Positions 1,198-24,438 of a stretch of 64,000 nt of DNA are shown here, piece by piece. How positions within the stretch are numbered: the first letter of the stretch is position 1; each line of letters starts with the position of its first letter. Origin of the DNA: an uncultured Pseudomonadales bacterium (GTDB taxonomy: Bacteria > Patescibacteriota > Microgenomatia > UBA1400 > CAYXSR01); assembly GCA_964430265.1 (NCBI GenBank), contig CAYSEI010000003.1, positions 1,070 through 65,069 on the forward strand, given 5' to 3'. Under the pieces are notes generated by a model, which saw only the letters and a list, made by a program, of their open reading frames with translations, did not search any database and was not told the DNA's origin. The translations under genes were made by a program, and so were the position numbers.

Positions 1198-1201
1198 CTT
1201 T

Positions 1202-1459
1202 TTAACTTTTAACTTGAATTATTATACGATGATCCGGACCATCCTTTATCTTTTCCACTTTAAGCACTTTGTGCCCTTCTTTTTCTGAGTTACGAGGAAT
1301 CCTTTCTAAGGATAAGGGATAATCTGTTAAGACTTCTAACACCTCTTCAGGATTCATTTCCTTTAATTTTTTCCTGGTTTTAATATCCGGATATGGACAA
1401 ATCTCACCCCGGACATCAATACTTGCTGTTATTTTAACATCCTTATTTTCCTCTAACAT
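1202..1459 (-). CDS. tusA: TusA-like sulfurtransferase
   Basis: 85 aa with the CPxP active-site motif (GEICPYPDIK). Typical partner of YeeE. Confidence 0.75.
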   Translation of the reverse strand: MLEENKDVKITASIDVRGEICPYPDIKTRKKLKEMNPEEVLEVLTDYPLSLERIPRNSEKEGHKVLKVEKIKDGPDHRIIIQVKS

Positions 1460-1507
1460 ATAAACTTCCTTTCTCTGTTATAAATTTATTATAAAATAAA
1501 TTTGTAA

Positions 1508-4131: not shown

Positions 4132-4793
4132 TTTATATACTTTCCTTTCATACCTTCTTTTAATAACAAAGCCAACCCTTCTGCATTTTTGTCACACTTA
4201 TCCGGACAATATATAGTCGGTCTTCTTGATAATTTAACTCTTTCACCATTATTCTCAAAAACATGAACAATACTTGCCTTGGTATAGTCGGTATTTTCCC
4301 AAGAAGTAATTACTATCCCTTTATCCAAATACTGATAAACATTATTAACCTGCTCAACATTTTCTATTGCAAAAGCATTTTTAACCGTTTCAATATCTAA
4401 ATCAGTAAAAATAGTGTAATCTTTTAATTGACCGCGGTAAACAATGCTTTCTTTATTGCTTAAAAAAGAATATCCGTCTTCTATTAAAATATACTCCATT
4501 TGCTGTTCAGTCGGTTTTAGTGTTCTCCCGGCCAAAATCATGTCTACTTTTTTGTTTTCTAAAAGAGCTAAACTCTCAGCAGTAGAACCAGTTTTAATAA
4601 TTTCATATTTTTCAGCATCAATTGTTTTAACCATTTCAAAACACGTCGGACAAGCAGCAATCTTTAATTTTTCCTTTTTCACAAACTGGCTGCTGTTAAC
4701 CTGCCCCGGCTTTTTTCCTTTTACAAAACTTAAACCTATTCCAGCAAAAACAGCTATTAAAACAGAGATAACAACTAATTTTTTGTTTATCAT
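4128..4793 (-). CDS. Hypothetical secreted or anchored protein with CxxC and CxxxC pairs
   Basis: 221 aa, N-terminal TM or signal sequence, CPTC near the N-terminus and CPDKC near the C-terminus. No family recognised. Embedded in the redox operon. Confidence 0.3.
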   Translation of the reverse strand: MINKKLVVISVLIAVFAGIGLSFVKGKKPGQVNSSQFVKKEKLKIAACPTCFEMVKTIDAEKYEIIKTGSTAESLALLENKKVDMILAGRTLKPTEQQMEYILIEDGYSFLSNKESIVYRGQLKDYTIFTDLDIETVKNAFAIENVEQVNNVYQYLDKGIVITSWENTDYTKASIVHVFENNGERVKLSRRPTIYCPDKCDKNAEGLALLLKEGMKGKYIK

Positions 4794-4800
4794 TTATATT

Positions 4801-5511
4801 TTAAAAAACCAACCTTAATAAAAACTGAGAATAATAAACACCTGTTACTAGAAAAATTATGGCGACTATTTTCCTGCTTACTTTTTCAATCTTCTGAACA
4901 ACAGCAAATGCCTGCCCTACCTTCTGCATAGAAAAAGCAATTATAAAAGAAAAAATTATTACCGGTAAACCTGTACCTAAAGCAAATATTGGAGGCAGCA
5001 AAAGTGCTTCTGTTGATTTAAGCACCATTGGGATAAGAACACCAAAAAACAATACACCGCTGTAAGGGCAAAATGCCAAAGCAAAAAGACTGCCTAATAA
5101 AAACGAACCCAAATAACCTTTAGTAGACAGTTTGCTTTTTAAATGCTCAATTTTTTTATTTTTAGTTTTTAAATTTAGTTTAATAACATCAAGCATAATT
5201 AAACCCAGAATAATTAAAACCGGCCCCAAAACCTTCTCCCCCCAGCCTTGAAATATTTTGGCTATTTGAAAGGAAGACAAACCAAAATATATTAAAGTTG
5301 CCAGAAGCGTATAGCTTAAACCCCTTCCCAAAGTATAAAAAACTCCGTTTAACAAAGTCTGCTTGGTTGATTTTAACTCTTTGGAAATATATGCAATTGC
5401 CGTAATATTGGTTGCCAAAGGACAAGGGCTGATTGAGGTAAGCACTCCTGTTAAAAAAGCAGTCAAAAGCGGAATGTTATAAGTATCAATCAAGTAGTTA
5501 ATAAACTGCAT
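4801..5511 (-). CDS. ccdA: CcdA-like cytochrome-c-biogenesis / DsbD-family thiol-disulfide transporter (transmembrane electron transfer)
   Basis: 236 aa, about 6 TM, with conserved Cys in TM1 (SISPCPLA) and TM4 (AFCPYSG). Confidence 0.7.
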   Translation of the reverse strand: MQFINYLIDTYNIPLLTAFLTGVLTSISPCPLATNITAIAYISKELKSTKQTLLNGVFYTLGRGLSYTLLATLIYFGLSSFQIAKIFQGWGEKVLGPVLIILGLIMLDVIKLNLKTKNKKIEHLKSKLSTKGYLGSFLLGSLFALAFCPYSGVLFFGVLIPMVLKSTEALLLPPIFALGTGLPVIIFSFIIAFSMQKVGQAFAVVQKIEKVSRKIVAIIFLVTGVYYSQFLLRLVF

Positions 5512-5512
5512 T

Positions 5513-6016
5513 TTATTTTCCCAATAGACTTCTTAATCTTGCTTCAAAATAATCAATAAATTGAGCTTCATTATTAACCAACCGCCACACTTTAACATCT
5601 TCACTAATATTATCTTGACCGTTCCTTATTGCATTAATAAATAAAGAGGATCCCCGGGCACGATATTTAGCAACTATTTCCTGATTCTCTTTTAACTCCC
5701 CATTGATATCTTTATAGATAATCTTGCCTGAAGCATATTCTTCCGGAAATTCTTCCTTAATGGTTTTTAACGCATATTCACCAACAGTTATACACGACCA
5801 GCATTGGTTTGTACCGTGAAAATGCACAATGACTATCTTATCCGCGGGCTGAGGCGTCGGGCTTGGAGAAACATGAGACGCTTTTTTACTTGAATTGCCT
5901 TCCCCTAGCACTTGATTATTACTTTGTGTTGTTCTATTACGGTATATTCCAAATCCAATTATTGCAATTACTACCACGGTAATAATTAAAGTTATTTTTT
6001 TATCCATATTCTCCAA
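5513..6016 (-). CDS. Membrane-anchored CxxC (CWSC) protein, possibly thioredoxin-fold
   Basis: N-terminal TM, Pro-rich linker, then VHFHGTNQCWSCITVGEY. Family not recognised. Confidence 0.35.
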   Translation of the reverse strand: MENMDKKITLIITVVVIAIIGFGIYRNRTTQSNNQVLGEGNSSKKASHVSPSPTPQPADKIVIVHFHGTNQCWSCITVGEYALKTIKEEFPEEYASGKIIYKDINGELKENQEIVAKYRARGSSLFINAIRNGQDNISEDVKVWRLVNNEAQFIDYFEARLRSLLGK

Positions 6017-6017
6017 A

Positions 6018-7175
6018 TTAAATTATTAACCCATACATAAATCCGGCAAGGGTTGTTAAAACCGTAATCGAAACTGCATAAACAAATGTCTTTTTTGTGC
6101 CAATAAGCTTACTGATTACCAAAAGCCCCTGAAGAGATAAAACCGGATCAGATAATAAATAAGCCATTAATGGTCCTTTATGCATACCCAATTCCATAAA
6201 ATTCTCTGCAATCGGTACTTCTACTAAAGCAGGAAAATAAGCAATTGCGCCAAACAAAACAGCAACAAAATTAGTTAAAATATTATTATTACTAGCTAAA
6301 GCCTGAAACTGTTTTTCAGGAATTATTTCAGTCAATGCTGAAGCAAAAAATACCCCGATTAAAAGCAAAGGAATAATTTGGGTAACAAATTTTATTGTTT
6401 CATTCCACCAAGCTTGTCTTCTTGAAGAGGAAAGCCAGCCAAAGGTCATTATTACCTGGATTAGAATCAAAGGCAGAACTAATCCATACCTTAAACCACT
6501 ACTAATCGGGGCAGTGCCGACTATTAAGATTGCTATCAATGTGCCCCAAAAAAAGCCTGTTTTCTTGCCTTGCAAGCGGTCCAAATCCTCTTTAATTATT
6601 TGTGTCTCTCCGTCTTCATGTCCATTGCCAAAAACAACCTCCATAATTATTCCGGTTAAAACTGCAAATGCTACTGAAAAAATAAACCGGATCAAGCTAA
6701 AACCCCAACCCAATCTCTGCCCGGTCAGAACTAAAGTAACAAGATTAAACGCCGGCCCGGCATAAAGAAGAGTAACCGCAACTCCCAAACCAGCACCCTT
6801 TTTCCAAATACCGGCAAAAAGGGGTAGAATCGTGCAAGAGCAAACTTGAACAAGAAAACCACTAGTAACAGCAATTACGTAAGCTAAGCCTTTTTTTGTT
6901 TTGCCGGATAAATATTTTAAAACCTGGCTGGAATCAACTAAACTATTAATTGCTCCAGCAATAAAGAAAGCCGGGATTAAACAAAAAAGAACATGTGCGG
7001 AAAGATAATCAACCAGCCCAAGCCAGCCTTGATAAACTGCCTGGCCAATTAACTCCTGAACTGTTTCTTGGGCAAGAAAACCGCCAATCTGATCCTGCCA
7101 CAGATAAATAATCAAATAGGCACCAGACAATAAGCCAATAACCCAGTTTTTTTTAATAATTTTAAATATTTTCAT
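6018..7175 (-). CDS. DUF318/ArsP-like permease
   Basis: 385 aa multi-TM with an intramembrane CSC motif (VQVCSCTILP). Genomic association with Thioredoxin_3 and ArsR genes. Confidence 0.6.
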   Translation of the reverse strand: MKIFKIIKKNWVIGLLSGAYLIIYLWQDQIGGFLAQETVQELIGQAVYQGWLGLVDYLSAHVLFCLIPAFFIAGAINSLVDSSQVLKYLSGKTKKGLAYVIAVTSGFLVQVCSCTILPLFAGIWKKGAGLGVAVTLLYAGPAFNLVTLVLTGQRLGWGFSLIRFIFSVAFAVLTGIIMEVVFGNGHEDGETQIIKEDLDRLQGKKTGFFWGTLIAILIVGTAPISSGLRYGLVLPLILIQVIMTFGWLSSSRRQAWWNETIKFVTQIIPLLLIGVFFASALTEIIPEKQFQALASNNNILTNFVAVLFGAIAYFPALVEVPIAENFMELGMHKGPLMAYLLSDPVLSLQGLLVISKLIGTKKTFVYAVSITVLTTLAGFMYGLII

Positions 7176-7178
7176 AAT

Positions 7179-7430
7179 TTATTCTTCGTTCTCAGTAATC
7201 AACTTTTTAATTTTTTCAACATCATTAACTAGACCAGTTAAAACCGGCTCATCATCAATAGTTAAAACCGGGCTGGACATTACACCCAATTCCATAATTT
7301 TCTGAATGCCTTCCTGACCGGAAACATATTCAACCTTCTGGTCTATTTGTATTTCTTCAACCGCTTTTTTTGTTAGCTCAAACAGCTTTTTACAAGTAGG
7401 GCATCCCGAACCTAAGATTTGGATTTTCAT
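7179..7430 (-). CDS. Thioredoxin_3 family small redox-active disulfide protein (redox-active disulfide protein 2)
   Basis: 83 aa, MKIQILGSGCPTCKKL with CxxC near the N-terminus. Typical partner of the DUF318 permease. Confidence 0.7.
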   Translation of the reverse strand: MKIQILGSGCPTCKKLFELTKKAVEEIQIDQKVEYVSGQEGIQKIMELGVMSSPVLTIDDEPVLTGLVNDVEKIKKLITENEE

Positions 7431-7750
7431 TTTTCCTCCTTTAATAAATTAAAAATTAAATCACTAACTTGTTTTCCCTTTGGGGTTAGAAAATAATATT
7501 TGCGTCTTCCTTCACGACGGCTGTCAACCAATTTTTCTTGCTTCAAGTCACTTAAATGATGGGAGGTTAAACTCTGGCTCATGTCAAAATAATCTTTCAT
7601 TTCACAGACACAGCATTCCCCCTGCCTTAAAACACAAATTAATTTTAGCCTGCTTTTCTCACTTAAGAGTTTTAATAAAGCAGAGATATCTTCAATTTTC
7701 TCTGCTTCTTTTTTTTCTGGTTGGCAACATTTATATGAACGCACATTCAT
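7427..7750 (-). CDS. ArsR/SmtB-family metalloregulatory transcriptional repressor
   Basis: 107 aa. Metal/metalloid-binding Cys cluster (ECCVCEM) precedes a helix-turn-helix region. First gene of the minus-strand operon. Confidence 0.7.
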   Translation of the reverse strand: MNVRSYKCCQPEKKEAEKIEDISALLKLLSEKSRLKLICVLRQGECCVCEMKDYFDMSQSLTSHHLSDLKQEKLVDSRREGRRKYYFLTPKGKQVSDLIFNLLKEEK

Positions 7751-8371: not shown

Positions 8372-8432
8372 TTATATACATTTTAAATTATTCTTTTTTC
8401 TTTTACAAACTCTTGATATAATCATGGTTGTT

Positions 8433-8951
8433 ATGAAAATTATAGATAAAGTAACTACTAAAACAGATGTTTTTTCCCGGACAAATACATACTTAATCGG
8501 ATTGCTTGTACTTTTAATTGTTCCGCCTTTCTTTATAAACAACCAATTCATTACTGGACCCTTAGTAAATGCAATTCTTTTAAGCTCAGCTGTAATTGGC
8601 AGTAATTCTGTGGGAACAATATATGGTATGCTACCCAGTACGATTGCTTTAACCAGCGGGTTACTGCCGCTTCCTTTAGCACCAATGATCCCCTTTATAA
8701 TGTTGGCTAATGCAATTTATGTTCTGACTTTTAAAAGTTTATATAACAAAAATCTCTTTATGGGAATATTTGCTGGCTCTTTGGCAAAATTTATATTTTT
8801 AAATGCTTGTGTTTCTTTTATTTTACCCAATTTATTAAAAGTACAGTTTTTAAGTAAAATAGCAGTAATGATGAGCTGGCCCCAGCTGGTAACAGCAATT
8901 GTTGGCGGTGTTATTGCTTTAGGTATTATTGAAAAATTCCAGCAAAATTAA
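8433..8951 (+). CDS. Hypothetical polytopic membrane protein (about 5 TM), possibly a transporter substrate-capture component
   Basis: The ORF at 8322 overlaps the upstream gene, and the internal ATG at 8433 (MKIIDKV) is the more likely start. Hydrophobic throughout. Confidence 0.35.
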   Translation: MKIIDKVTTKTDVFSRTNTYLIGLLVLLIVPPFFINNQFITGPLVNAILLSSAVIGSNSVGTIYGMLPSTIALTSGLLPLPLAPMIPFIMLANAIYVLTFKSLYNKNLFMGIFAGSLAKFIFLNACVSFILPNLLKVQFLSKIAVMMSWPQLVTAIVGGVIALGIIEKFQQN

Positions 8952-8986: not shown

Positions 8987-9997
8987 ATGGACAAAGATTT
9001 ATTATTGGAAAAAATTAAGCAAGCAGGAATTGTCGGACGCGGCGGCGGTGGTTTTCCCTCTCATTTAAAGTGGAAAAGAATTTTAGATCATCAAGCAGAT
9101 AAAAAAGTGCTTGTTTGTAATGCTTCCGAAGGTGAACCCGGTGTTTTTAAAGATTTTTACATCTTAAAAAATTACCCGGAAAAGGTATTTAAAGGCATAC
9201 GTATAGCTTTGGACTTTTTAGATTCTAAAGATGCATATATTAATTTTAATAAAGCCTATTACCATCAATTAAGGGATAAAATTGATCCTTTAGTACAGAA
9301 TTACAAGGATAAAGGTTGTGACATTCGTATTTTTATTGAAGAGCCCAGCTACATCGGAGGGGAAACCGGAGCACTTTTAAATGCAATTGAAGGAAAAAGA
9401 ACTGAGCCACGACTCAAACCGCCCTCTCCTTCTTTAGCAGGAATTCGTGGAAATCCTTGTTTAGTCCATAATGTTGAAACACTTTATGATGTCTGCTTGG
9501 TTGTTGATGGAAAATTTAAGGAAAAAAGATATTACAGTATCTCTGGTGAGGTTAGAAACTCTGGTGTTTATCATTTAAACAGGGATTTAAACATGGAAGA
9601 AGTTTTGAAAAAAACAAATAACTGGCCGGACATGGATTTTTTTGTACAGGCTGGCGGAGGAGCAAGCGGCCCTTGCTTTAATAAAGAACAGTTAAAAAAA
9701 GAAAAAACTCCGGGAAGCGGATCTATTGAGGTGTATCCAGCTGATACACATCCTAGAGAAATGTTTAAAAAATGGTTTACTTTTTATAAAAAGGAAAGCT
9801 GTGGCAAATGCGGGCCCTGTAGACAGGGAACTTATCAATTGTATAAAATGATTAACCAACGTGAACAAATCCCTTGGAAAGATATGGGAGAAATAATTGA
9901 AGCAATGGAAAAAACAGCTTTTTGTGCTTTGGGAACTTCCATTGCTATTCCCTATAAAAGCTATTTAACTAATGTATTAAAAAAGTGTGTATTATAA
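8987..9997 (+). CDS. NuoF-like NAD(P)H-binding FMN / 4Fe-4S flavoprotein (hydrogenase diaphorase HydB-like subunit)
   Basis: GRGGGGFPSHLKW and CNASEGEPGVFKD (NADH and FMN sites of the 51-kDa family). The C-terminus carries ESCGKCGPCRQG plus a distal Cys, matching the N3-type 4Fe-4S site. The stop overlaps the hydA start. Confidence 0.8.
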   Translation: MDKDLLLEKIKQAGIVGRGGGGFPSHLKWKRILDHQADKKVLVCNASEGEPGVFKDFYILKNYPEKVFKGIRIALDFLDSKDAYINFNKAYYHQLRDKIDPLVQNYKDKGCDIRIFIEEPSYIGGETGALLNAIEGKRTEPRLKPPSPSLAGIRGNPCLVHNVETLYDVCLVVDGKFKEKRYYSISGEVRNSGVYHLNRDLNMEEVLKKTNNWPDMDFFVQAGGGASGPCFNKEQLKKEKTPGSGSIEVYPADTHPREMFKKWFTFYKKESCGKCGPCRQGTYQLYKMINQREQIPWKDMGEIIEAMEKTAFCALGTSIAIPYKSYLTNVLKKCVL

Positions 9998-11702
9998 CAT
10001 GAAGAAAAAAAACACAGTATATATTGACAATAAACCATATTTTTTTGAACAAGGTGACACTATTTTAGATGTTGCCAGAAAAAATGACATTGATATTCCC
10101 CACCTTTGTTATCATCCCGACTTGCCCAAAGTGGCAAACTGCAGAACCTGTCTGGTTGAAAACCTGAACAAGGAGGAAATAACCACATCCTGTACCCTAG
10201 TTTGCAAAGACGGCATGAAAGTTAACACTAAAAGTGAGGAAATAAACAGATTAAGAAAAACTAATCTGGAACTGGTTTTGGCACAGCATACACAAAATTG
10301 TAATTTGTGCCAGAGCGGACTGCAGTGTGATACTGCAGACTTAATGAAAAAATATGGAGTTACCGGATACAAATATAGCAAAGAAAAGGTAGATGCTAAA
10401 AAACCCAAAATCGGTTCCTTAATAGAAATTGATCCTAAATTGTGCATTGGCTGTAGAAAATGTACTGAGGCCTGCAAAAAACAAGGTATTGGATATTTAG
10501 AACTGGATAAAAGAGGTCAGGAAATACATGTTAAACCAACTGAAAACAAGCATATTGATTGTATCTTTTGCGGACAATGCACTTTAAAATGTCCTGTCAA
10601 TGCAATCCGAGAACAAAATCAGGTAGAAGACGTAGAAAGAAAATTAAATGCTCCTGATAAAATTGTTATTGCCCAGATGGCTCCTTCTGTAAGAACTAGC
10701 ATCGGTGAAGAGTTTGGATTTCCAATCGGTACCAATCTGAGCAAAAAAATGTATACGGCATTTAGAAAATTGGGCTTTGAAAAGGTTTTTGATGTAAATA
10801 TGGGTGCAGACATTACCACCATGGTAGAAGCAGAAGAACTAATTGAAAGGATTGAAGAAAACGAAGGTTTGCCAATGTTTACTTCTTGCTGTCCTTCCTG
10901 GGTAAAATTTATTGAATTTTATTACCCAGAATTTATCCCCAATTTAACTACCTGCCGTTCACCCCAAATTCATTCCGGTGCTGCATACAAAACCTGGTGG
11001 GCCCAAAAAAAAGGAATTGACCCCAAAAATATTGTAGTGGTTTCTATTATGCCTTGTACTTCCAAAAAATTTGAGGCACAATTGGAAAAACTGAAAGTCA
11101 ACGGCCATTATCCAGTTGACCATGTTTTGACTACCAGAGAAACCGCTGACCTATTAAAAAAACACAATATCGACCCGCATGATCTAAAAGATTCAGACGT
11201 TGACAAATACGGAGAATATACTGGTGCCGCAGCAATATACGGGGCTTCCGGCGGAGTAATGGAGTCAGCACTTAGAACTGCTGCTTATCAAATGACTGGA
11301 AAAGACTTGGAAAAACTGGAATTTGAACAGGTAAGAGGAACTAAAGGAATTAAAAAAACAACCGTCACTATTGATGGCAAGGAATTACGTTTAGCCGTAG
11401 TTTCTAATACAAAAAATGCCCGCATTATTTTACAAGAGATTAAAAAGAAACCAAAAGCTTACCACTATATTGAATTTATGACCTGTCCGGGCGGATGTTT
11501 GGGCGGCGGCGGCCAGCCGCTTTCTTCCACTGAAGAAACTGTCAAAGAAAGGATTAAGAGCTTGTATAAAATAGATACAGAATCAAAAATAAGAAAGGCA
11601 CACGAAAACCCGATTGTTAAAGAATTTTTTGATTACCTAGACACTTTGCCTGAAGAAAAAAGAAAACAAATTCTTTATACCAACTACCAGAAAAGAAGTT
11701 GA
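9987..11702 (+). CDS. hydA: [FeFe]-hydrogenase catalytic subunit (group A, M3-like). Domains are an N-terminal 2Fe-2S ferredoxin, 2x[4Fe-4S] and the H-cluster.
   Basis: H-cluster motifs are L1 FTSCCPSWV, L2 MPCTSKKFEA and L3 EFMTCPGGCLGGGGQP. Two CxxCxxCxxxCP ferredoxin motifs and an N-terminal Cys pattern CYHPDLPKVANCRTC are also present. Confidence 0.9.
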   Translation: MYYNMKKKNTVYIDNKPYFFEQGDTILDVARKNDIDIPHLCYHPDLPKVANCRTCLVENLNKEEITTSCTLVCKDGMKVNTKSEEINRLRKTNLELVLAQHTQNCNLCQSGLQCDTADLMKKYGVTGYKYSKEKVDAKKPKIGSLIEIDPKLCIGCRKCTEACKKQGIGYLELDKRGQEIHVKPTENKHIDCIFCGQCTLKCPVNAIREQNQVEDVERKLNAPDKIVIAQMAPSVRTSIGEEFGFPIGTNLSKKMYTAFRKLGFEKVFDVNMGADITTMVEAEELIERIEENEGLPMFTSCCPSWVKFIEFYYPEFIPNLTTCRSPQIHSGAAYKTWWAQKKGIDPKNIVVVSIMPCTSKKFEAQLEKLKVNGHYPVDHVLTTRETADLLKKHNIDPHDLKDSDVDKYGEYTGAAAIYGASGGVMESALRTAAYQMTGKDLEKLEFEQVRGTKGIKKTTVTIDGKELRLAVVSNTKNARIILQEIKKKPKAYHYIEFMTCPGGCLGGGGQPLSSTEETVKERIKSLYKIDTESKIRKAHENPIVKEFFDYLDTLPEEKRKQILYTNYQKRS

Positions 11703-11706
11703 ATGC

Positions 11707-12471
11707 TTGCTGGTATTAAAACAATTGTATTATTCTCTAAAATATAATTTCTGTATATTTATGAAAGCAACTGAAAATCTAATCAATCAGCAACAGATTA
11801 AGTTTTTAACTATGCACTATTATTACCGTATAGAGAAATTTGTCAAAAAAGTTGCTTCTAAATATGATAAAAAAAACTTAAAGGTTTTAGACATTGGTGC
11901 CGGCAAATGCTCATATAAAAAACTTTTTAACAAAGCTTCTTATTATTCCACCGATATTCGCCAAAATAAAGACAATAGCATTAATTACGTAACTGATTTT
12001 AATTATGGATTAAAAGACCTTGAAAACAATTCTTTTGATTATATTTTATGTATTCAGGTTTTAGAACACCTTAAATTTCCCCATAAAGCTTTTAAGGAAA
12101 TGAATAGATTATTAAAACCTGGGGGTAAATTATTTCTATCGACAAACTTTATCGCTCATATGCATATGATTCCCAATGACTATTTCCGCTTCACTAAGTA
12201 TGGGTTAAAACTATTAGGTGAAGAAAACGGTTTTGAAGTAGAACATCTAGCAGAACACGGGGGCATTTTTCATGTTTTGAGTTATACATTAAGCACCCTG
12301 CCTCTAAGAATAATATTCTGCAAAGTAAATTTTTGGTACACTCTTTATTTATTGATTTTCAGCCTACCAATTATATGCTTAAACTTATTAGCAATACTCT
12401 TGGATAACTTTGATAAAGAAAAAAGAATGACGATAAATTACGAAGTCATTTATAAAAAAACATCTTCTTAA
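11707..12471 (+). CDS. Class I SAM-dependent methyltransferase (type 11-like)
   Basis: VLDIGAGKC glycine loop, then FDYILCIQVLEHL. Hydrophobic C-terminus. The start may be the internal Met MKATENL. Confidence 0.65.
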   Translation: MLVLKQLYYSLKYNFCIFMKATENLINQQQIKFLTMHYYYRIEKFVKKVASKYDKKNLKVLDIGAGKCSYKKLFNKASYYSTDIRQNKDNSINYVTDFNYGLKDLENNSFDYILCIQVLEHLKFPHKAFKEMNRLLKPGGKLFLSTNFIAHMHMIPNDYFRFTKYGLKLLGEENGFEVEHLAEHGGIFHVLSYTLSTLPLRIIFCKVNFWYTLYLLIFSLPIICLNLLAILLDNFDKEKRMTINYEVIYKKTSS

Positions 12472-12491
12472 TCTCCCCTATCCTTATCAAT

Positions 12492-13946
12492 TTACCTAAA
12501 ATCAAGCTGTTTGCTAAAGTAACGCTTAACAAAACGCAAATAATATTTAAAAACATCCCAATTGGTTAAAGCATATTGTATTTTCATCAGCATCCACTGG
12601 GGCGTAAAAACCAGACTGTAAAATTTACGGATGTATTCTTTTAATTCTTTGTTTTTTAAATCCGTTTTTACAATTGGCTGGCGCATGTCATATTTTCCCC
12701 AATCTTTTGTTTTTAGCCAGTTTTTTTCATTGGCTTCTTTAAAAAGAGGTGTTCCCGGATAAGGGATTACAATAGTAGTCTGCCAGCTGTCAATTAATTT
12801 TTTTTGTACTAGATCTTTAAAAAATTGGTAAGTGTTTTCAATATCTTTTTCTTCTTCCCAGGGATAGCCAATCATTACTGTTACATGCGGATTTAAGCCT
12901 GCTTTTTTTGCATTTTTTAAATTGGGTTCAATCTGTTCCACTTTTAAACCTTTGTTTATTTTATCCAGAGTTTTCTGGTTAGCTGATTCAAGTCCATAAA
13001 GTAAGAAGCGGAAGCCGGCTTTGCGCATCATTTGGTAGTCTTTTTTTGTTAGGTTGCTGTTAAAACGCATATTGCAATTTATCCTGACTTTTTTATTTAA
13101 TCCTTTTTTAATCATTTTTTCACAAAACTCATTTAGCCAGTTACCAACAGGAAAAGTTCCTGAATCATCCATGATTTCTTTTATTGAGTATTTTTTAACT
13201 AATTCCTCCACTTCTTTTATTGCCTTATCAACAGAAATAGTTCTGCACTGGGGGTATAAGTTTGCCGGCCAGCTGCAAAAAGTACACTTCCCCCACCAGC
13301 AGTCGCGTGAAAACATAGTATATGTACCCGGCAAGCTGCGGTAATTTGAGTTTTTATATGCATAAGTCTTCCAGTTTGTTAGCTCCCTGTCTATTAAAGG
13401 AAGATTGCTTAAATCTTTTTTAAGCTGGAATTTTCCTGTATTTAATATTTTTCTATTTTTCTTGTACCATATACCTGGTTTAAGCTTTTTTCCTTTTTCT
13501 ATATGCTTAACAACACTTAAAAGCAGATAATCATAGTCTCCTCCGGTGAGAATATAGTCGGCCTGTGAGTTATTCAAAGTTTCTTTTGGTCTAGCTGTTA
13601 CATGATCTCCTGCTAAAATAATTGTTAATTGCTTGTTTATTTTTTTTAATTTCTCAATTATTTGCCAGTGTTTTTTAATTACTGGTGTTTTTGTTTCTAA
13701 AAAAAGAATATCCGGATTAAAATCAAATAATTTGCTCTCCCATTTTTTGTATTGCATCTGCTTGTTTATTCCGTCCAACCATAAAATCTCGTATCCAGCA
13801 TTTTTAAGCATTGTAGCTGCATAAGCAGGAATTATCGGATAGGCTGTCCAAGGGGTTTTTGCCCATTGAAACTGCCTGTTTTGGGCAAGCAGGGCTGTTC
13901 CTTTTTTTGATTCTAATTGAGGATAGCCAATTGCTATTTTCATCAT
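12492..13946 (-). CDS. B12-binding-domain radical SAM protein (class B radical SAM family)
   Basis: The N-terminal cobalamin-binding-like domain begins MKIAIGYPQ. The radical SAM CxxxCxxC is CWWGKCTFC. The ORF could start at 13967, but that leaves only 18 bp to the divergent GT gene. Confidence 0.75.
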   Translation of the reverse strand: MMKIAIGYPQLESKKGTALLAQNRQFQWAKTPWTAYPIIPAYAATMLKNAGYEILWLDGINKQMQYKKWESKLFDFNPDILFLETKTPVIKKHWQIIEKLKKINKQLTIILAGDHVTARPKETLNNSQADYILTGGDYDYLLLSVVKHIEKGKKLKPGIWYKKNRKILNTGKFQLKKDLSNLPLIDRELTNWKTYAYKNSNYRSLPGTYTMFSRDCWWGKCTFCSWPANLYPQCRTISVDKAIKEVEELVKKYSIKEIMDDSGTFPVGNWLNEFCEKMIKKGLNKKVRINCNMRFNSNLTKKDYQMMRKAGFRFLLYGLESANQKTLDKINKGLKVEQIEPNLKNAKKAGLNPHVTVMIGYPWEEEKDIENTYQFFKDLVQKKLIDSWQTTIVIPYPGTPLFKEANEKNWLKTKDWGKYDMRQPIVKTDLKNKELKEYIRKFYSLVFTPQWMLMKIQYALTNWDVFKYYLRFVKRYFSKQLDFR

Positions 13947-13985
13947 TTTTAGTATACCATTAGCCAAATATTGTAAAATAGGGGT

Positions 13986-14972
13986 ATGAAATCTGTAAGT
14001 GTAATTTTAGCTACCTTAAACAGCGGTGATATTTTAGATAAGTGCTTGTCCTCTGTGCGCAGTCAAGAATATAACCAAGATAAAATTGAGATTATTGCTG
14101 CAGACGGCGGGTCCACTGACGCAACTTTGGACATCTTAAAAAAATACAAAGCGCAAATTATTCCGGAAAATACGGGGAATCCAGAAGCTGCAAAACTTCT
14201 GGCACTTAAAAAAGCAAAAAACGAAATTATTCTGCATATTGACGATGATACTGTCCTTCCCAACAACAAATGGCTGAAAAACATGCTTGATTGTTTTGCA
14301 AAAGAACCAGAAGCTGTTGCCTGCTACCCTTGGCGATATACGTATAGGAAAAAAGATAAATTTTTAAATAGGTATTTTGCACTTTTTGGAGTTAATGATC
14401 CTCTTGCATATTTTCTAAAAAAAGCAGACAGACAGGATTACCTGCCTCCCAAAGACAAGTACAAATTAAAAGGAAAAGCTACTGACAAGGGAAAATATTT
14501 TTTGGTCGAGTTTAATAAAAATAATCTGCCGACTGTAGGTGCAAACGGATTTTTAATTAAAAGAAAAATCTTAAACAAAGTTTTGCAAAATAAAAAACAC
14601 TTTTTTCATATTGATGCAAATTTAAAATTAGTTAAAAAGGTTTTTAACAAATACATTGTAGTTAAAAATAATGTTTTACATTTAAGCGGTGGTTCACTTT
14701 TAAAGTATCTTAAAAAAAGATCCCGCTATTTAAATATTGTTAACTTGGAGCAAAAACAAAACCGCATATATTATACTGCTGATGTTAACAAAGACTTTTT
14801 TATGCTTGTCTTGTTTGCTATCTATGCAAACACTTATATAGGTCCTCTTTTAGTCTCTTTTAAAGGCTTTTTATCTAAAAAAGACCCGGCTTGGTTTTTG
14901 CATCCGATTATTAATTTTTTGATTGCCTGGATATATTTTATTAACGTATTAAAATCATGGCTGAAAAAATAA
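13986..14972 (+). CDS. Glycosyltransferase family 2 (1 of 5 tandem paralogs)
   Basis: VSVILATLN...IIAADGGSTD. GT-A fold N-terminal signature. Confidence 0.75.
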   Translation: MKSVSVILATLNSGDILDKCLSSVRSQEYNQDKIEIIAADGGSTDATLDILKKYKAQIIPENTGNPEAAKLLALKKAKNEIILHIDDDTVLPNNKWLKNMLDCFAKEPEAVACYPWRYTYRKKDKFLNRYFALFGVNDPLAYFLKKADRQDYLPPKDKYKLKGKATDKGKYFLVEFNKNNLPTVGANGFLIKRKILNKVLQNKKHFFHIDANLKLVKKVFNKYIVVKNNVLHLSGGSLLKYLKKRSRYLNIVNLEQKQNRIYYTADVNKDFFMLVLFAIYANTYIGPLLVSFKGFLSKKDPAWFLHPIINFLIAWIYFINVLKSWLKK

Positions 14973-15925
14973 CACCGCAAATTTCTATTGTCATCTGTAC
15001 CTTTAACCGTGCTGAGAGTCTAAAAAATTGCTTACAATCATTGACCAAGCAAACTTTTTCTGATTTTGAAGTAATAATTGTTGACGGCGGATCGCAAGAC
15101 AAAACACCACAGATAATTGAAAATTACAAAAACAAATTAAATATAAAAGTAGTTATTAATAAATCGAAAAATATTGCTAAACTAAGAGACTGTGGATGGA
15201 GGCAAGCTGAAGGAAGATATATTTCCTGGATTGACGATGATGTGGTTGCCTCACCAAACTGGGCGGAAACTGTTTTTAATGTGCTTAAAAACAACAAAAA
15301 CATCACGGGTGTGACTGGTCCGACATTGATTCCCAAAGAAATTCTGCAAAATCGTGACGTATTCTTTTTTCATAATAAAAAAGACTTGCTTGCAAAGTTT
15401 TGGCAAAACTTTGTTTTAGAAGGAAAAGAAAAGGACCCAGGACAAATTTTAAAAAATGGATTTTGGACGCCGGGATCCAATTTTTCCGAATCCACAAAAC
15501 TAGAAAAATCTGTTGAGGTTGATTTTTTGGAGGCTTGTAACATGACTTTTAAAAAAAGTCTGGTGGAAAAAGTGAACGGTTTTAACCCGGATTTTTTTAA
15601 AGAATGGTCTGAGGCGGATCTGTCGCAAAGAATTAAAAAACTTGGATACAAGTTGCTTTTCCATCCCAAAGCAGTTGTTGAGCACCACATTTCCAAAAAA
15701 GGCGCTTTTCACGGACGGACAACAGCAAAAGAAAGAATGCAGGATTTTTTTAACTTTTATTTTAAACATGCCTATAAGTTTAAATATTTATGGAGGTTTT
15801 TAATTTTGGTGTTTATACAAAATCTTTACTATACATACAAAGCAATAAAAGACAAAAATATTTCTTGGCTGGGCAGCTGGTTGGGAACAATTAAAGGATT
15901 TAAATATATATGCAAAAAGAATTAA
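14957..15925 (+). CDS. Glycosyltransferase family 2 (2 of 5)
   Basis: ISIVICTFNRAESL, VIIVDGGSQD, WIDDDV (DxD). Confidence 0.75.
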   Translation: MAEKITPQISIVICTFNRAESLKNCLQSLTKQTFSDFEVIIVDGGSQDKTPQIIENYKNKLNIKVVINKSKNIAKLRDCGWRQAEGRYISWIDDDVVASPNWAETVFNVLKNNKNITGVTGPTLIPKEILQNRDVFFFHNKKDLLAKFWQNFVLEGKEKDPGQILKNGFWTPGSNFSESTKLEKSVEVDFLEACNMTFKKSLVEKVNGFNPDFFKEWSEADLSQRIKKLGYKLLFHPKAVVEHHISKKGAFHGRTTAKERMQDFFNFYFKHAYKFKYLWRFLILVFIQNLYYTYKAIKDKNISWLGSWLGTIKGFKYICKKN

Positions 15926-16929
15926 GCTCTATCATCATTCCCACACACGGATATACCCAAGAATTAAAAGATTGCTTGCTTTCAATTAAAAAAAATACCC
16001 AGGCTGATTATGAGTTGATTGTTGTAGCAACCGAAGAACCGCCTCAGAAATTCTTTAATAATCTGGGTGTAAAATTAATCAAAACCAAAGAGTTCGGCCC
16101 GGCAAAAAAAAGAAATATTGCTGTAAAAAAATCCATTGGAAAATATTTAATATTTTTGGATTCAGATACTGTGGTTGATAAAAATTGGCTTAACCCTGTA
16201 GTTGGTTATCTAAACAAAAATCCAAATGTTGGTGGCGGACAGTTTAAATTATTAAAATATTCGGACAAAAATGTTTTTGATTCTGCAGGAGAAAAAATTA
16301 CACCCTGGGGGTTCTTGGTAGAACGTGCACGCAGCAGCAAAGACAAATTACAATTTGACAAGGTAGAAAAAATATTTAGTATTAAGGGTGCTGCCATGAT
16401 TTTTAAACGTAAAGTGTTTGAAAAAGCAGGCGGCTTTGACCCTAATTACTTTATTTTTTGGGAAGAACCAGACATATGCTGGAGAATTTGGAAAACAGGC
16501 AAGGAAATTGTTTTTCTATACATGGGAAAAGTCTGGCACAAAAAAGAAAAACAAAACAAAAGCTCATATAAAAAAAAGCGCAGCAAAATTACTTATTGGG
16601 GCTGCAGAAACCAGATCATGACTGTTTATAAAAACAGCGTCGGCATAAACAGAATAAGAATGCTTTTTTGTGTTAACCTTGCCTGGCTTTCCTTTTTAAT
16701 ACTTTTCTCTTTAAAAGGGCAGTTTGAACAAAGCAAAGCAATTATTAATGCTTATAAATATATTTTCCCCAATTTTACATCCTTAAAACAAAAAAGAAAC
16801 AAACTAAAGCAAGACCTTGGCAAGAATTTTTATTCGGATAAAAAATGGCTGCCTAAAGTTACAATTAAAAGAGGTTTAAAATGGTATTGGGGTAAAGGAT
16901 CTAGTTATTTATTAAATAAGCCTTTTTAA
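15910..16929 (+). CDS. Glycosyltransferase family 2 (3 of 5)
   Basis: SIIIPTHGY...FLDSDT. C-terminal TM segment. Confidence 0.7.
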   Translation: MQKELSSIIIPTHGYTQELKDCLLSIKKNTQADYELIVVATEEPPQKFFNNLGVKLIKTKEFGPAKKRNIAVKKSIGKYLIFLDSDTVVDKNWLNPVVGYLNKNPNVGGGQFKLLKYSDKNVFDSAGEKITPWGFLVERARSSKDKLQFDKVEKIFSIKGAAMIFKRKVFEKAGGFDPNYFIFWEEPDICWRIWKTGKEIVFLYMGKVWHKKEKQNKSSYKKKRSKITYWGCRNQIMTVYKNSVGINRIRMLFCVNLAWLSFLILFSLKGQFEQSKAIINAYKYIFPNFTSLKQKRNKLKQDLGKNFYSDKKWLPKVTIKRGLKWYWGKGSSYLLNKPF

Positions 16930-16930
16930 A

Positions 16931-17905
16931 ATGATTTCTGTAATAATTGTTAATTACAACGGAGCAAAATATATTAAAGACTGTATTAAATCTTTACAGT
17001 CTTCAATCTACAAAAATTTTGAAATAATTTTTGTGGATGATTGTTCAACTGATCAATCATTTAAAATAATTAAAAAATTTAAAAATGTTAAATTAATTCA
17101 AAACAAAAAAAACTTGGGAGCATCGTTATCCAGAAATAAAGGTGCAAAAAGAGCTAAAGGTAACCTTCTATTTTTCCTTGATGTTGACACTAAAACTATT
17201 CCAAGTGCATTAGATAATCTTGCCAAGGAGTTTAACAAAAATGAAACAATGGGAGCAGCACAAGTGCAATTAATTAAAGCAGATAAAAATGTCTTGGATT
17301 CCAGCGGCCACTATTTATCACCTTTTGGCTTCCCTTATGAAACTGGGACAAACAAAAATCCGGACAAATATCAAGAAAAAAGAAAAATATTGGGAGGTAA
17401 ATCCGCCGGATTAATCGTCAGAAAAAATGTGTTTGAAAAAATAAATGGTTTTGATTCGGACTATTTTATTTACGGTGAAGATACTGATCTTTGCTGGCAT
17501 GTTTGGCTATCAGGATTTGAAGTATTTTATTTACCTTCTGTAAAAATATTTCATTTTCAAAAAAGCAGTATTAACAAAAATACAAAAAAAAGAGTTTTTT
17601 ATCAGGGCACTAAAAACAATCTTAATTATTTATTAAAAAACCTTGAGTTGAAAAAGTTCTTTTGGATTATTCCTCTGCATGTTCTGGGATGGATGCTGCT
17701 ATTTTTTAAAAAAGTTTTAACTGGAGAGTTTAAGTTTGCTCTAGCAATTATAAACGGGCTTTTTTGGAATCTTATTAATCTACCCAAAATAATGCAAAAA
17801 AGGGGGATAATAAAAAGTAAAAACATAGACAGAAAAATATTGTTTGGTGAAATAAAAATTGGTAGCCTTTTTAATAAAGGTTTAAGGTGGTTTAAAAATG
17901 TCTGA
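16931..17905 (+). CDS. Glycosyltransferase family 2 (4 of 5)
   Basis: ISVIIVNYNGAKYIKDC, FVDDCSTD, FLDVDT. Confidence 0.75.
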   Translation: MISVIIVNYNGAKYIKDCIKSLQSSIYKNFEIIFVDDCSTDQSFKIIKKFKNVKLIQNKKNLGASLSRNKGAKRAKGNLLFFLDVDTKTIPSALDNLAKEFNKNETMGAAQVQLIKADKNVLDSSGHYLSPFGFPYETGTNKNPDKYQEKRKILGGKSAGLIVRKNVFEKINGFDSDYFIYGEDTDLCWHVWLSGFEVFYLPSVKIFHFQKSSINKNTKKRVFYQGTKNNLNYLLKNLELKKFFWIIPLHVLGWMLLFFKKVLTGEFKFALAIINGLFWNLINLPKIMQKRGIIKSKNIDRKILFGEIKIGSLFNKGLRWFKNV

Positions 17906-24420: not shown

Positions 24421-24438
24421 AAAAATTATATTTTCTTT

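What the first reader, a model, noticed from the sequence alone, without database searches (positions are those of the whole stretch)
8987..11702. [FeFe]-hydrogenase HydA with a compact NuoF-like partner, but no NuoE-like subunit or HydE/F/G maturases in the window
All three H-cluster motifs are intact, so the enzyme is probably catalytically competent. The 336-aa NuoF-like protein is unusually short and is translationally coupled, with an 11-nt overlap. Bifurcating hydrogenases are normally HydABC trimers. A dimeric flavoprotein-HydA enzyme would be NAD(P)H-linked but non-bifurcating. The SAM methyltransferase immediately downstream, with a 5-bp gap, may be co-transcribed.
Basis: partly seen in the sequence, partly recalled or inferred. 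Interest (0 to 1): 0.55.

Follow-up and report, generated by a model that had tools for sequence, protein, structure and literature searches.

The report
NuoE-less flavoprotein–[FeFe] hydrogenase with membrane partner
This candidate-phyla-radiation bacterium carries a conserved three-gene cassette (a small membrane protein, a stripped-down NADH-binding flavoprotein and an [FeFe] hydrogenase) that probably exchanges electrons directly between NAD(P)H and H2 without the parts needed for electron bifurcation, although current classifiers would label it bifurcating.

Summary
Window 8987-9997 encodes a 336-aa NuoF-like flavoprotein. It is tightly coupled to an M3-type HydA with all H-cluster and accessory-cluster ligands.

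The short length is not an artefact. Hundreds of relatives are 322-352 aa and all lack the ~35-45-residue N-terminal domain of ordinary NuoF. They keep the FMN/NADH site, an SLBB-like domain and one [4Fe-4S] site.

A validated NuoE profile found NuoE next to 0 of 19 short-family genes but 58 of 61 ordinary NuoF genes (p≈1e-15). Sequence signatures and cofactor content match non-bifurcating enzymes.

It encodes a ~170-aa ECF-S-component-like membrane protein (the "HymD"/"hyd6TM" type), adjacent in 18 of 20 loci.

The downstream methyltransferase is not conserved and belongs to a glycan cluster. The "11-nt overlap" depends on a GTG start; ATG 9999 is more likely.

Maturases and a distant NuoE cannot be excluded genome-wide.

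Verdict: a new variant of a known kind, a NuoE-less minimal NAD(P)H-linked [FeFe] hydrogenase cassette widespread in CPR bacteria. Interest is moderate.

The parts
8424..8951 (+). Gene for a 175-aa six-helix membrane protein of the ECF-transporter S-component fold (the 'HymD'/'hyd6TM' type). An alternative start is ATG 8433. Invariant motifs: TGPLVN (8553-8570), PST..GLLP..AP..PFI (8634-8699), MMSWPQ (8868-8885).
   Evidence: It is homologous to genes adjacent to the short-NuoF/HydA pair in 18 of 20 non-redundant loci. It is 50% identical to the membrane gene of a Dehalococcoidales hymABCD-type cluster. The family weakly matches PF12822 over the profile's full length. The AF2 model has pLDDT 92, and its only meaningful PDB neighbours are RibU and ThiT S components.
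8987..9997 (+). Gene for a 336-aa minimal NuoF-like flavoprotein. Sites: FMN loop GRGGGGFP (9035-9058); NAD(P)H/FMN site NASEGEPGVFKD (9119-9154); SYIGGETGAL (9347-9400); SLBB-like region (~9500-9760); N3-type [4Fe-4S] ligands ESCGKCGPCRQG (9794-9829) and FCALG (9920-9934).
   Evidence: Pfam and NCBIfam matches. Alignment to Aquifex NuoF: query 6-317 equals NuoF 53-396. AF2 pLDDT 88, with TM 0.85-0.89 to NuoF, HydB and HoxF cores. Family invariants include C272, C275, C278, C313, Y122 and K55.
9999..11702 (+). hydA: a 567-aa M3-type [FeFe] hydrogenase (571 aa if started at GTG 9987). Sites: [2Fe-2S] ligands (10107-10193), His-ligated [4Fe-4S] (10287-10328), two [4Fe-4S] (10443-10475, 10560-10592), H-cluster motifs L1 (10881-10901), L2 (11049-11075) and L3 (11472-11519).
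   Evidence: Pfam domains. The best NCBIfam match is NF040763 'NADH-dependent [FeFe] hydrogenase, group A6', at 668 bits, below its 765-bit cut-off. The best solved relatives are A. woodii HydA1 (473 bits) and T. kivui HydA1 (449 bits), ahead of CpI (~427 bits), with all ligands aligned.
11707..12471 (+). NOT part of the cassette: a class I SAM methyltransferase with a C-terminal hydrophobic tail. The first ATG is at 11761.
   Evidence: Methyltransf_23/11 domains. It has no homologue in any of the related loci. It is followed by a B12-radical-SAM gene, five tandem GT2 glycosyltransferases, a sulfotransferase and a flippase.

Best explanation
The window carries a three-gene cassette that is conserved across CPR/Patescibacteria and is also present in a TM6 genome.

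Core enzyme (inferred from cofactor sites and homology). HydA and the minimal NuoF-like protein form a two-subunit, non-bifurcating NAD(P)H:H+ oxidoreductase.
- NAD(P)H gives a hydride to FMN.
- Single electrons pass to the flavoprotein's one N3-type [4Fe-4S] cluster.
- They then move to HydA's N-terminal [2Fe-2S] and [4Fe-4S] chain and on to the H-cluster.
- This is the same wiring as NuoF to NuoG in complex I.
- The NuoE subunit and its off-pathway cluster are absent. So is the N-terminal NuoF domain that ordinary, NuoE-partnered NuoFs all retain.
- Without the HydB accessory clusters and the HydC cluster, the enzyme cannot couple ferredoxin oxidation to NADH oxidation.
- H2 evolution from NADH would therefore run only at very low H2 pressure. 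That would tie these fermentative episymbionts to H2-consuming neighbours. At high H2 the enzyme could run in reverse to make NAD(P)H.

Membrane protein (weaker inference). The third gene encodes a solitary ECF-S-component-like membrane protein. Its invariant residues appear to lie in the outer half of the membrane, as in a substrate pocket. Most likely it binds or imports a small molecule the enzyme needs. Flavin is the leading guess and a metal is the alternative. It may also tether the enzyme to the membrane.
For: - Domain content and ligands.
- Confident NuoF-core fold without the N-terminal domain.
- NuoE is absent next to the short family (0/19) but present next to ordinary NuoF genes (58/61). 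This used a NuoE profile whose sensitivity is shown by the controls (Fisher p=1.3e-15).
- Non-bifurcating signatures from Losey et al. 2020 (PMC7311640) are met: invariant Lys55, invariant Tyr122, and GG(S/G)ASG in place of GGPSG.
- Bifurcation needs the HydB accessory clusters and HydC (PMC9304861; PMC9499530). Neither is present here.
[quoted passage not shown] They produce H2 only to about 2-40 Pa (PMC7311640; PMC13556243).
- HydA is closest to the HydA subunits of multimeric NAD-linked enzymes.
- The genes are tightly coupled, with 1-nt spacing here and 4-nt overlaps in L001 and L002.
- HydA adjacency is conserved in 19 of 20 loci.
- Membrane protein: adjacent in 18 of 20 short-family loci but only 1 of 11 ordinary HydA-linked loci. 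It keeps adjacency even when gene order changes (L002: downstream). It has the S-component fold.
- Its invariant residues fall in loop 1/TM2 start, TM3-loop 3-TM4 and loop 5/TM6 start.
Against: - No biochemistry exists for any family member.
- A NuoE-like gene elsewhere in the genome cannot be excluded. Only 64 kb of this genome and ±10 kb of the relatives were visible.
- No HydE/F/G was seen in about 355 kb around family members, so in vivo maturation is unexplained.
- HydA keeps the surface clusters that ferredoxin uses in CpI, so ferredoxin may also be a partner.
- No complex model could be computed.
- One family variant (L019) pairs the short NuoF with a 500-aa HydA that lacks the [2Fe-2S] domain expected to receive electrons from N3.
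- For the membrane protein:
  - No FMN riboswitch was found.
  - Complete Peribacteria genomes were reported to make riboflavin themselves (PMC4736985), although whether those particular genomes carry the cassette was not checked. This weakens the flavin-import idea.
  - No EcfA/T genes or conserved AxxxA docking motif were found.
  - The outer-leaflet placement of invariant residues is inferred from predicted helices and the positive-inside rule, not from coordinates.
Confidence: 0.6

Rival explanations
1. It is an ordinary trimeric (possibly bifurcating) HydABC-type enzyme. Its NuoE-like subunit, and the maturases, are simply encoded elsewhere in the genome.
For: Only 64 kb of this genome and ±10 kb around relatives could be read. 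hydEFG genes are often unlinked to hydA in bacteria. HydDB's rule would call such enzymes group A3, and it lists a Peregrinibacteria enzyme as bifurcating (PMC5037454).
Against: NuoE is adjacent or fused in 58 of 61 ordinary NuoF loci but in 0 of 19 short-family loci. The short family has also lost the N-terminal NuoF domain and has none of the extra HydB clusters or bifurcation signatures. A report on five complete Peribacteria genomes found no other hydrogenase subunits (PMC4736985).
Confidence: 0.08
2. HydA is primarily a ferredoxin-dependent fermentative hydrogenase, like CpI. The short NuoF-like protein adds an uncoupled second entry or exit for electrons. This would amount to NAD(P)H:ferredoxin exchange through HydA's cluster chain, rather than a dedicated NAD(P)H hydrogenase.
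For: HydA has the full M3 cluster set of CpI and scores nearly as well against CpI (~427 bits) as against the multimeric enzymes (449-473 bits). A small Fer2 ferredoxin gene lies near the cassette in L020. CPR bacteria typically have PFOR and ferredoxin (PMC4736985).
Against: The strict adjacency and translational coupling of the NuoF-like gene with hydA (19 of 20 loci) argue for an obligate partner. The best NCBIfam match is the NADH-dependent class, not the clostridial ferredoxin hydrogenase (668 against 548 bits). The fungal Hyd+NuoEF system does not use ferredoxin (PMC13556243).
Confidence: 0.17
3. The membrane protein is a structural anchor or subunit that holds the hydrogenase at the membrane. 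It might stabilise the flavoprotein in place of NuoE. It would not be a transporter.
For: Its gene overlaps the NuoF-like gene in several loci. It is strongly enriched with the NuoE-less form (18/20 against 1/11). There are no Ecf energising genes, no conserved AxxxA motif and no riboswitch.
Against: It coexists with NuoE in Dehalococcoidales. No fusions to hydrogenase subunits occur among the best 150 of 1,260 relatives. Invariant residues map to the predicted outer-leaflet half rather than the cytoplasmic face (inference). At least one family member lies away from any hydrogenase (L021).
Confidence: 0.25
4. The hydrogenase is not matured in vivo (there are no HydEFG genes), and the cassette serves another redox or sensory role.
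For: No HydE/F/G-like gene was seen in the window or in about 355 kb around relatives.
Against: All H-cluster ligands and motifs are strictly conserved across a large, diverse family. This indicates selection for catalysis. Most archaea with active [FeFe] hydrogenases also lack HydEFG, and an alternative maturation route has been proposed (PMC11216029).
Confidence: 0.05

Closest known systems
[quoted passage not shown]
   Same: An M3-type HydA is partnered with a NuoF-type flavoprotein that has FMN and only the N3-type cluster. The β-subunit signatures are the same (Lys, Tyr, no GGPSG). The predicted chemistry is ferredoxin-independent NADH to H2, feasible only at low H2 pressure (PMC7311640, PMC13556243).
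   Different: All characterised members retain a NuoE module, either as a separate γ subunit or fused to HydB (the S. aciditrophicus HydB is 66 kDa). Here there is none, the flavoprotein is 336 aa and lacks the NuoF N-terminal domain, and an S-component-like membrane protein is part of the cassette.
hymABCD-type [FeFe] hydrogenase clusters (annotated in Dehalococcoides and Heliobacterium; example here: Dehalococcoidales locus L017)
   Same: The HydA type is the same (41% identity) and so is the small ECF-S-like membrane protein (50% identity). The flavoprotein has no extra Fe-S domains.
   Different: The HymA (NuoE-like, PF01257) gene is absent. The flavoprotein is only 29% identical and about 70 residues shorter. 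The usual gene order is membrane gene first rather than last.
Electron-bifurcating HydABC / Bfu family ([FeFe] group A3; T. maritima, A. woodii, T. kivui)
   Same: The HydA is the closest solved relative (A. woodii HydA1, 473 bits). The NuoF-core fold superposes on HydB with TM ~0.86-0.89. HydDB's neighbour-gene rule would give the A3 label.
   Different: It lacks the HydB N-terminal [2Fe-2S] and C-terminal 2x[4Fe-4S] domains, HydC, the HydA C-terminal bridge domain, and the bifurcation signature residues.
'hyd6TM' of archaeal group A [FeFe] hydrogenase clusters (Cell 2024, PMC11216029)
   Same: Both are small 4-6-helix membrane proteins encoded next to group A [FeFe] hydrogenases, with function uncharacterised.
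   Different: It is mentioned only in figure legends for archaea. Its ECF-S-component fold and its tight link to NuoE-less bacterial cassettes are shown here.
ECF transporter S components RibU and ThiT
   Same: Six-helix fold (Foldseek probability ~1.0, TM 0.5-0.6). There are weak full-length PF12822 matches. The conserved residues appear to cluster where S components bind substrate.
   Different: Sequence identity is 11-18%. The window protein scores below the Pfam threshold. There is no conserved AxxxA motif, no neighbouring EcfA/EcfT genes and no riboswitch. The substrate is unknown.

Membership tests
Electron-bifurcating HydABC/Bfu ([FeFe] group A3) | HydA with an H-cluster and N-terminal Fe-S chain | tested here: met
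   All ligands and the L1-L3 motifs are present and aligned to A. woodii and T. kivui HydA.
Electron-bifurcating HydABC/Bfu ([FeFe] group A3) | HydB/BfuB carrying extra clusters (N-terminal [2Fe-2S], C-terminal 2x[4Fe-4S]; IPR017896) | tested here: not met
   Only Complex1_51K and NADH_4Fe-4S domains are found. Only four Cys are invariant in the family, and the protein is 336 aa against ~600 aa. The requirement comes from PMC9304861 and PMC9499530.
Electron-bifurcating HydABC/Bfu ([FeFe] group A3) | HydC/BfuC NuoE-like subunit (PF01257) in the cluster | tested here: not met
   None is found in the 64-kb window or in the flanks (up to 10 kb each side, where the contigs allowed) of the 19 short-family loci. 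The same profile finds it in 58 of 61 control loci. Genome-wide absence could not be tested.
Electron-bifurcating HydABC/Bfu ([FeFe] group A3) | β-subunit signatures Ala/Glu232, Met234, Phe367 and GGPSG (T. maritima numbering) | tested here: not met
   The window and family have Val/Leu, Lys (invariant), Tyr (invariant) and GG(S/G)ASG.
Non-bifurcating NADH-dependent multimeric [FeFe] hydrogenases | Flavoprotein with an FMN/NADH site and a single N3-type [4Fe-4S] | tested here: met
   GRGG loop, NASEGE..FKD, SYIGGE, and CxxCxxC...C are all invariant.
Non-bifurcating NADH-dependent multimeric [FeFe] hydrogenases | Non-bifurcating signature residues (Thr/Ser232; Lys/Ser/Ala234; Tyr367; no GGPSG) | tested here: met
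   Three of four are met: Lys55, Tyr122 and no GGPSG. Position '232' is Val/Leu, which matches neither class.
Non-bifurcating NADH-dependent multimeric [FeFe] hydrogenases | NuoE-like module, separate or fused | tested here: not met
   0 of 19 loci. There is no N-terminal extension, and GRGG sits at residue 14-35.
Non-bifurcating NADH-dependent multimeric [FeFe] hydrogenases | Ferredoxin-independent NADH-dependent H2 production | not testable with these tools
   This needs enzyme assays.
hymABCD-type cluster | Small HymD-type membrane protein encoded with HydA and a NuoF-like gene | tested here: met
   50% identity to the membrane gene of the Dehalococcoidales NuoE/NuoF/HydA/membrane-gene cluster. 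NCBI names family members 'iron hydrogenase'. The 'HymD subunit' label appears in PMC8516407 and PMC2887804.
hymABCD-type cluster | HymA (NuoE-like) gene | tested here: not met
   See the NuoE tests.
ECF transporter S component (PF12822) | Six-helix S-component fold | tested here: met
   AF2 pLDDT 92. The top 8 PDB matches are RibU, ThiT and other S components, with probability 0.94-1.0 and TM 0.44-0.60.
ECF transporter S component (PF12822) | Pfam gathering score | tested here: inconclusive
   The window protein scores 13.2 bits, below the 30.7 threshold. Relatives score 24-40 bits, and P0221 passes. All matches span the whole profile.
ECF transporter S component (PF12822) | AxxxA motif in helix 1 for EcfT docking (criterion recalled from the ThiT literature) | tested here: not met
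   Present in 9 of 47 members at inconsistent positions, and absent in the window protein.
ECF transporter S component (PF12822) | EcfA/A'/T energising module encoded nearby or in the genome | tested here: inconclusive
   None was found among the window ORFs scanned with Pfam (about 60 of 67) or in the annotated flanks of relatives. Group II modules are normally unlinked, so absence nearby is uninformative.
NuoF of respiratory complex I (TIGR01959) | Equivalog score cut-off | tested here: not met
   189 bits against a 558.65-bit cut-off. The alignment starts at model position 34.

The most novel reading that the evidence does not exclude
The cassette is a self-contained minimal hydrogenase module for genome-reduced episymbionts. 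The enzyme works without NuoE. The dedicated S-component-like membrane protein scavenges from the host or environment a cofactor or building block the cell cannot make. That could be flavin or, more radically, an iron or H-cluster precursor. Such scavenging would explain how organisms with no detectable HydEFG mature an [FeFe] hydrogenase.
Probability: 0.1. Interest if true: 0.85.

Novelty: new variant of a known kind. Interest (0 to 1): 0.55.

Why it matters
**Relabelling CPR hydrogen metabolism.** Surveys label CPR/Patescibacteria [FeFe] hydrogenases as group A3 "bifurcating" simply because a NuoF domain sits next door. HydDB's own benchmark does this for a Peregrinibacteria enzyme. If this family is instead a NuoE-less, non-bifurcating NAD(P)H hydrogenase, H2 evolution by these organisms is feasible only at very low H2 pressure. 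That would give a thermodynamic reason for their dependence on H2-consuming partners, and it would change community-level H2 budgets.

**A natural minimal diaphorase.** The family is a natural experiment on what NuoE and its N1a-type cluster are for. It offers a smaller diaphorase–hydrogenase pair for engineering NAD(P)H-driven H2 production.

**The membrane partner.** The conserved membrane partner has so far been mentioned only as "uncharacterized hyd6TM/HymD". Here it gains a fold assignment and a sharply defined genomic association that makes its function testable.

Tried and rejected
- **Truncation artefact: rejected.** The length and the N-terminal boundary are conserved in hundreds of relatives.
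- **Hidden NuoE among small Cys-containing ORFs: rejected.** These ORFs are thioredoxin/DsbA-type, nitroreductase or ArsR. A NuoE-patterned ORF in L009 matches nothing.
- **Methyltransferase as a cassette member: rejected.** It is not conserved, and it borders a glycan cluster.
- **Radical-SAM genes near relatives as HydE/HydG: rejected.** One is a PFL activase. Two are generic ~290-300-aa radical-SAM proteins with no family-level match.
- **FMN riboswitch upstream of the membrane gene: not found** in the window or in 8 loci.
- **Fusions of the membrane protein to hydrogenase subunits: none** among the best 150 of 1,260 relatives.
- **S. aciditrophicus 'dimeric HydAB' as an exact precedent: rejected.** Its HydB is a NuoE-NuoF fusion.
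- **Literature:** searches for a description of this CPR cassette, or of CPR maturases, found nothing specific.
- **The paper on the NADH/NADPH-discriminating Glu of NuoF** was not available.
- **Promoter and terminator scans** were at chance level.


Full report
**1. The observation.** ORFs at 8987-9997 (336 aa) and 9987-11702 (571 aa) exist on the + strand. The first carries Pfam Complex1_51K (residues 10-169) and NADH_4Fe-4S (259-329). The second carries Fer2_4, the NuoG-type His-ligated cluster motif, two ferredoxin-type [4Fe-4S] motifs, Fe_hyd_lg_C and Fe_hyd_SSU. HydA's best NCBIfam match is NF040763, 'NADH-dependent [FeFe] hydrogenase, group A6'. It scores 668 bits, below the 765-bit cut-off, and ahead of the clostridial ferredoxin hydrogenase model at 548 bits. 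Against solved structures it scores best with the HydA subunits of the multimeric A. woodii (473 bits) and T. kivui (449 bits) enzymes. CpI follows at about 427 bits. All accessory-cluster ligands and the three H-cluster motifs align.

**2. Junctions.**
- The NuoF-like stop codon is TAA at 9995-9997.
- An in-frame ATG at 9999 gives a 567-aa HydA. That is the length of the homologues in L001 and L002, which overlap their NuoF-like genes by 4 nt.
- The genes are tightly coupled either way.
- The methyltransferase's 5-bp gap depends on a TTG start; its first ATG is at 11761.

**3. The short flavoprotein is a real, large family.**
- A search of 5.8 billion proteins returned 3,524 hits. The best 120 are all 323-390 aa (most about 333 aa) at 50-68% identity. 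The few with names come from Patescibacteria or Candidatus lineages.
- Alignment to Aquifex NuoF pairs query residues 6-317 with NuoF 53-396.
- The flavin-loop GRGG motif sits at residue 14-36 across the family, but at residue 51 or later in ordinary NuoF-type proteins with intact N-termini.
- What is missing is therefore the N-terminal NuoF domain plus several loops.
- The middle SLBB-like region is retained. A few relatives even hit PF10531.
- The AF2 model (pLDDT 88) superposes on NuoF, HydB, HoxF and FdsB cores with TM 0.85-0.89.
- Family invariants cover the FMN/NADH site and exactly four cysteines, the N3-type cluster.

**4. No NuoE, with a positive control.**
- The window's Cys-containing small ORFs are thioredoxin/DsbA-type, nitroreductase or ArsR.
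- I obtained a genuine NuoE-type reference from a Dehalococcoidales locus, L017. That locus encodes NuoE-like (155 aa, PF01257), NuoF-like (408 aa), HydA (572 aa) and a small membrane protein.
- A tblastn search with that reference found nothing in the window or in the 16 related loci then held.
- A metagenome scan returned about 75 loci of ordinary NuoF genes and three more loci of the short family.
- An iterated NuoE profile seeded with the L017 protein found a separate or fused NuoE next to 58 of 61 ordinary NuoF genes with at least 600 nt of upstream sequence.
- It found NuoE next to 0 of 19 short-family genes (Fisher p=1.3e-15).
- These loci are not phylogenetically independent, but the contrast is clear. 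It coincides exactly with loss of the N-terminal domain.
- From recollection of the complex I structures, that domain packs against NuoE. I did not test this here.

**5. Bifurcating or not.**
- Losey et al. 2020 list β-subunit features that separate bifurcating from non-bifurcating enzymes.
- The family has invariant Lys at the '234' position, invariant Tyr at '367', and GG(S/G)ASG instead of GGPSG. All three are the non-bifurcating pattern.
- Position '232' is Val/Leu, which fits neither pattern.
- The Bfu-family analysis and the T. maritima cryo-EM study hold that bifurcation needs the extra HydB clusters and probably the HydC cluster. The NuoE-equivalent N1a cluster is off the main path in complex I.
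- None of these parts is present here.
- The inference is therefore a simple NAD(P)H-FMN-N3-HydA chain.
- Characterised non-bifurcating enzymes support the chemistry but all keep a NuoE module: S. wolfei Hyd1ABC, S. aciditrophicus HydAB and fungal Hyd+NuoEF. The 'dimeric' S. aciditrophicus HydB is a 66-kDa NuoE-NuoF fusion.
- That enzyme sustains only about 2-40 Pa H2 from NADH. This sets the expected physiological limit.

**6. A possible specificity subtype.**
- The window protein and its closest relatives (13 of 45 aligned) read GGE(T/S)GAL where 31 of 45 read the canonical GGEETAL.
- From memory, the second Glu (E. coli NuoF E183) discriminates against NADPH. I could not retrieve the paper.
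- This subgroup may accept NADPH, but that is a lead, not a finding.

**7. The missed third gene.**
- The ORF directly upstream encodes a six-helix membrane protein. Its annotated-length start is at 8424, giving 175 aa.
- Homologues sit immediately upstream of the short NuoF gene, often overlapping it, in most loci. In L002/L003 they sit immediately downstream of hydA.
- The tally is 18 of 20 non-redundant short-family loci, against 1 of 11 ordinary HydA-linked loci. That one is L017.
- Compared with L017, the membrane protein is the best conserved of the three: 50% identity, against 41% for HydA and 29% for the flavoprotein.
- Many relatives carry weak full-length matches to PF12822, the ECF-transporter S component family.
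- NCBI names some relatives 'iron hydrogenase'. This echoes the legacy 'HymD subunit' label.
- The AF2 model (pLDDT 92) matches only ECF S components in the PDB: RibU, ThiT and TmRibU, with probability ~1.0 and TM 0.5-0.6.
- Invariant residues (TGPxVN, PSTxA..GLLP..AP..PFI..N, K122, MMSWPQ..T..G) fall in loop 1/TM2, TM3-loop 3-TM4 and loop 5/TM6.
- With an N-in topology inferred from the positive-inside rule, this is the outer half of the membrane, where S components bind substrate. That favours ligand binding over a purely cytoplasmic docking role. This is an inference, not a measurement.
- Evidence against a canonical ECF role:
  - no conserved AxxxA helix-1 motif (9 of 47);
  - no EcfA/T genes among the scanned window ORFs or annotated flanks;
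  - no FMN riboswitch.
- Peribacteria genomes are reported to make riboflavin. I did not check whether those particular genomes carry the cassette.
- No fusions to hydrogenase subunits appear among the best 150 of the 1,260 relatives. One family member lies away from any hydrogenase (L021).

**8. Maturases.**
- No canonical radical-SAM or HydF-like ORF occurs in the window.
- The only radical-SAM gene in the window is a B12-binding HpnJ/BchE-like enzyme in the glycan cluster.
- Radical-SAM genes near relatives are a PFL activase and two generic enzymes.
- This says little, because hydEFG genes are often unlinked. The tools could not read whole genomes.
- The Cell 2024 study found that most archaea with [FeFe] hydrogenases, some of them shown to be active, lack HydEFG. 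The same question is open here.

**9. Context and organism.**
- The window has 29-38% GC.
- It encodes type IV pilus proteins, two class A PBPs, glycolytic and purine-salvage enzymes, many GT2 glycosyltransferases and a thiol-redox cluster. Together with the CPR affiliation of the cassette's relatives, this suggests a CPR bacterium; no taxonomic marker gene was tested.
- Cassette relatives come from Parcubacteria, Microgenomates, Pacebacteria, Peregrinibacteria/Peribacteraceae and one complete TM6 genome.
- The source record itself could not be retrieved or named.

**10. Comparison and novelty.**
- It fails a defining feature of each family: there is no NuoE module.
- It fails three of the four tested defining features of bifurcating HydABC, meeting only the HydA one.
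- HydDB assigns A3 when a NuoF domain is found in the protein immediately downstream of HydA. It lists a Peregrinibacteria enzyme as bifurcating.
- Here the NuoF-like gene is upstream, so HydDB would return A1 or A3 depending on which neighbour is supplied. Neither label fits.
- I found no paper describing this NuoE-less cassette.
- I rate it a new variant of a known kind, of moderate interest. It matters mainly for correcting functional labels in CPR hydrogen metabolism, as a natural minimal diaphorase-hydrogenase, and for the unexplained membrane partner.

Noticed in passing
window 166-7750 (- strand): A run of thiol/redox genes lies upstream: a Sulf_transp (YeeE-like) permease, a thioredoxin-like protein, a 567-aa multi-thioredoxin-domain protein with 12 Cys, DsbD_2, an ArsP_1 permease, a Thioredoxin_3 protein and an ArsR regulator. 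It is divergent from the hydrogenase cassette, with a DUF1003 gene in between.
   Followed up: partly
window 11707-25389: A large glycan-biosynthesis and modification cluster starts right after hydA. It contains a membrane-tailed SAM methyltransferase, a B12-binding radical-SAM enzyme (HpnJ/BchE-like, with CWWGKCTFC in place of CX3CX2C), five tandem GT2 glycosyltransferases, a sulfotransferase, a flippase, a PMT_2/TPR protein and two more GT2s.
   Followed up: partly
L019 5001-8358: A cassette variant pairs the membrane protein and short NuoF with a 500-aa HydA. That HydA lacks the N-terminal [2Fe-2S] and His-[4Fe-4S] domains expected to accept electrons from the flavoprotein. It is separated from the NuoF-like gene by ~300 nt and a small opposite-strand ORF.
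   Followed up: partly
L006 (CP011212.1, TM6 GW2011_GWF2_28_16) 9475-12746; L004; L005: A complete genome labelled TM6 (Dependentiae) carries the same cassette at 55-58% identity. It shares local synteny (a tRNA ~0.8 kb upstream) with a Parcubacteria locus and an unclassified locus. This suggests lateral transfer or a labelling issue.
   Followed up: no
window 9347-9400 (residues 121-138 of the flavoprotein): The nucleotide-site motif is GGETGAL instead of GGEETAL. 13 of 45 family members, including the window's closest relatives, share the Glu-to-Thr/Ser change. From memory this Glu disfavours NADPH in NuoF, so this subgroup may use NADPH.
   Followed up: partly
L004 4914-5816 (-); L006 3229-4101 (-): Generic ~290-300-aa radical-SAM proteins lie 5-6 kb upstream of the cassette in two loci. 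They reach no family-level NCBIfam assignment and are not HydE or HydG.
   Followed up: partly
L021 5001-5552: A member of the membrane-protein family has no hydrogenase within ±5 kb, so the association is strong but not absolute.
   Followed up: no
L016 9995-12545; L022: Two short-family loci have no detectable membrane-protein gene in the flanks. L016 is the most divergent member (38% identity; a 322-aa flavoprotein and a 538-aa HydA without an Fe_hyd_SSU match).
   Followed up: no
window 8414-8426: An extended -10-like sequence, TGATATAAT (8414-8422), ends 1 nt before the membrane gene's annotated ATG (8424). The second ATG (8433) might therefore be the true start, on a leaderless or short-leader transcript. 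The promoter scan overall was at chance level.
   Followed up: no
window 8649-8710 (- strand): A sub-threshold Rfam match to the twister-P3 ribozyme (26 bits against a gathering score of 39.9) lies inside the membrane-protein gene on the opposite strand. It is most likely chance.
   Followed up: no
window 51622-56297: Two class A penicillin-binding proteins (transglycosylase plus transpeptidase) are encoded in tandem.
   Followed up: no
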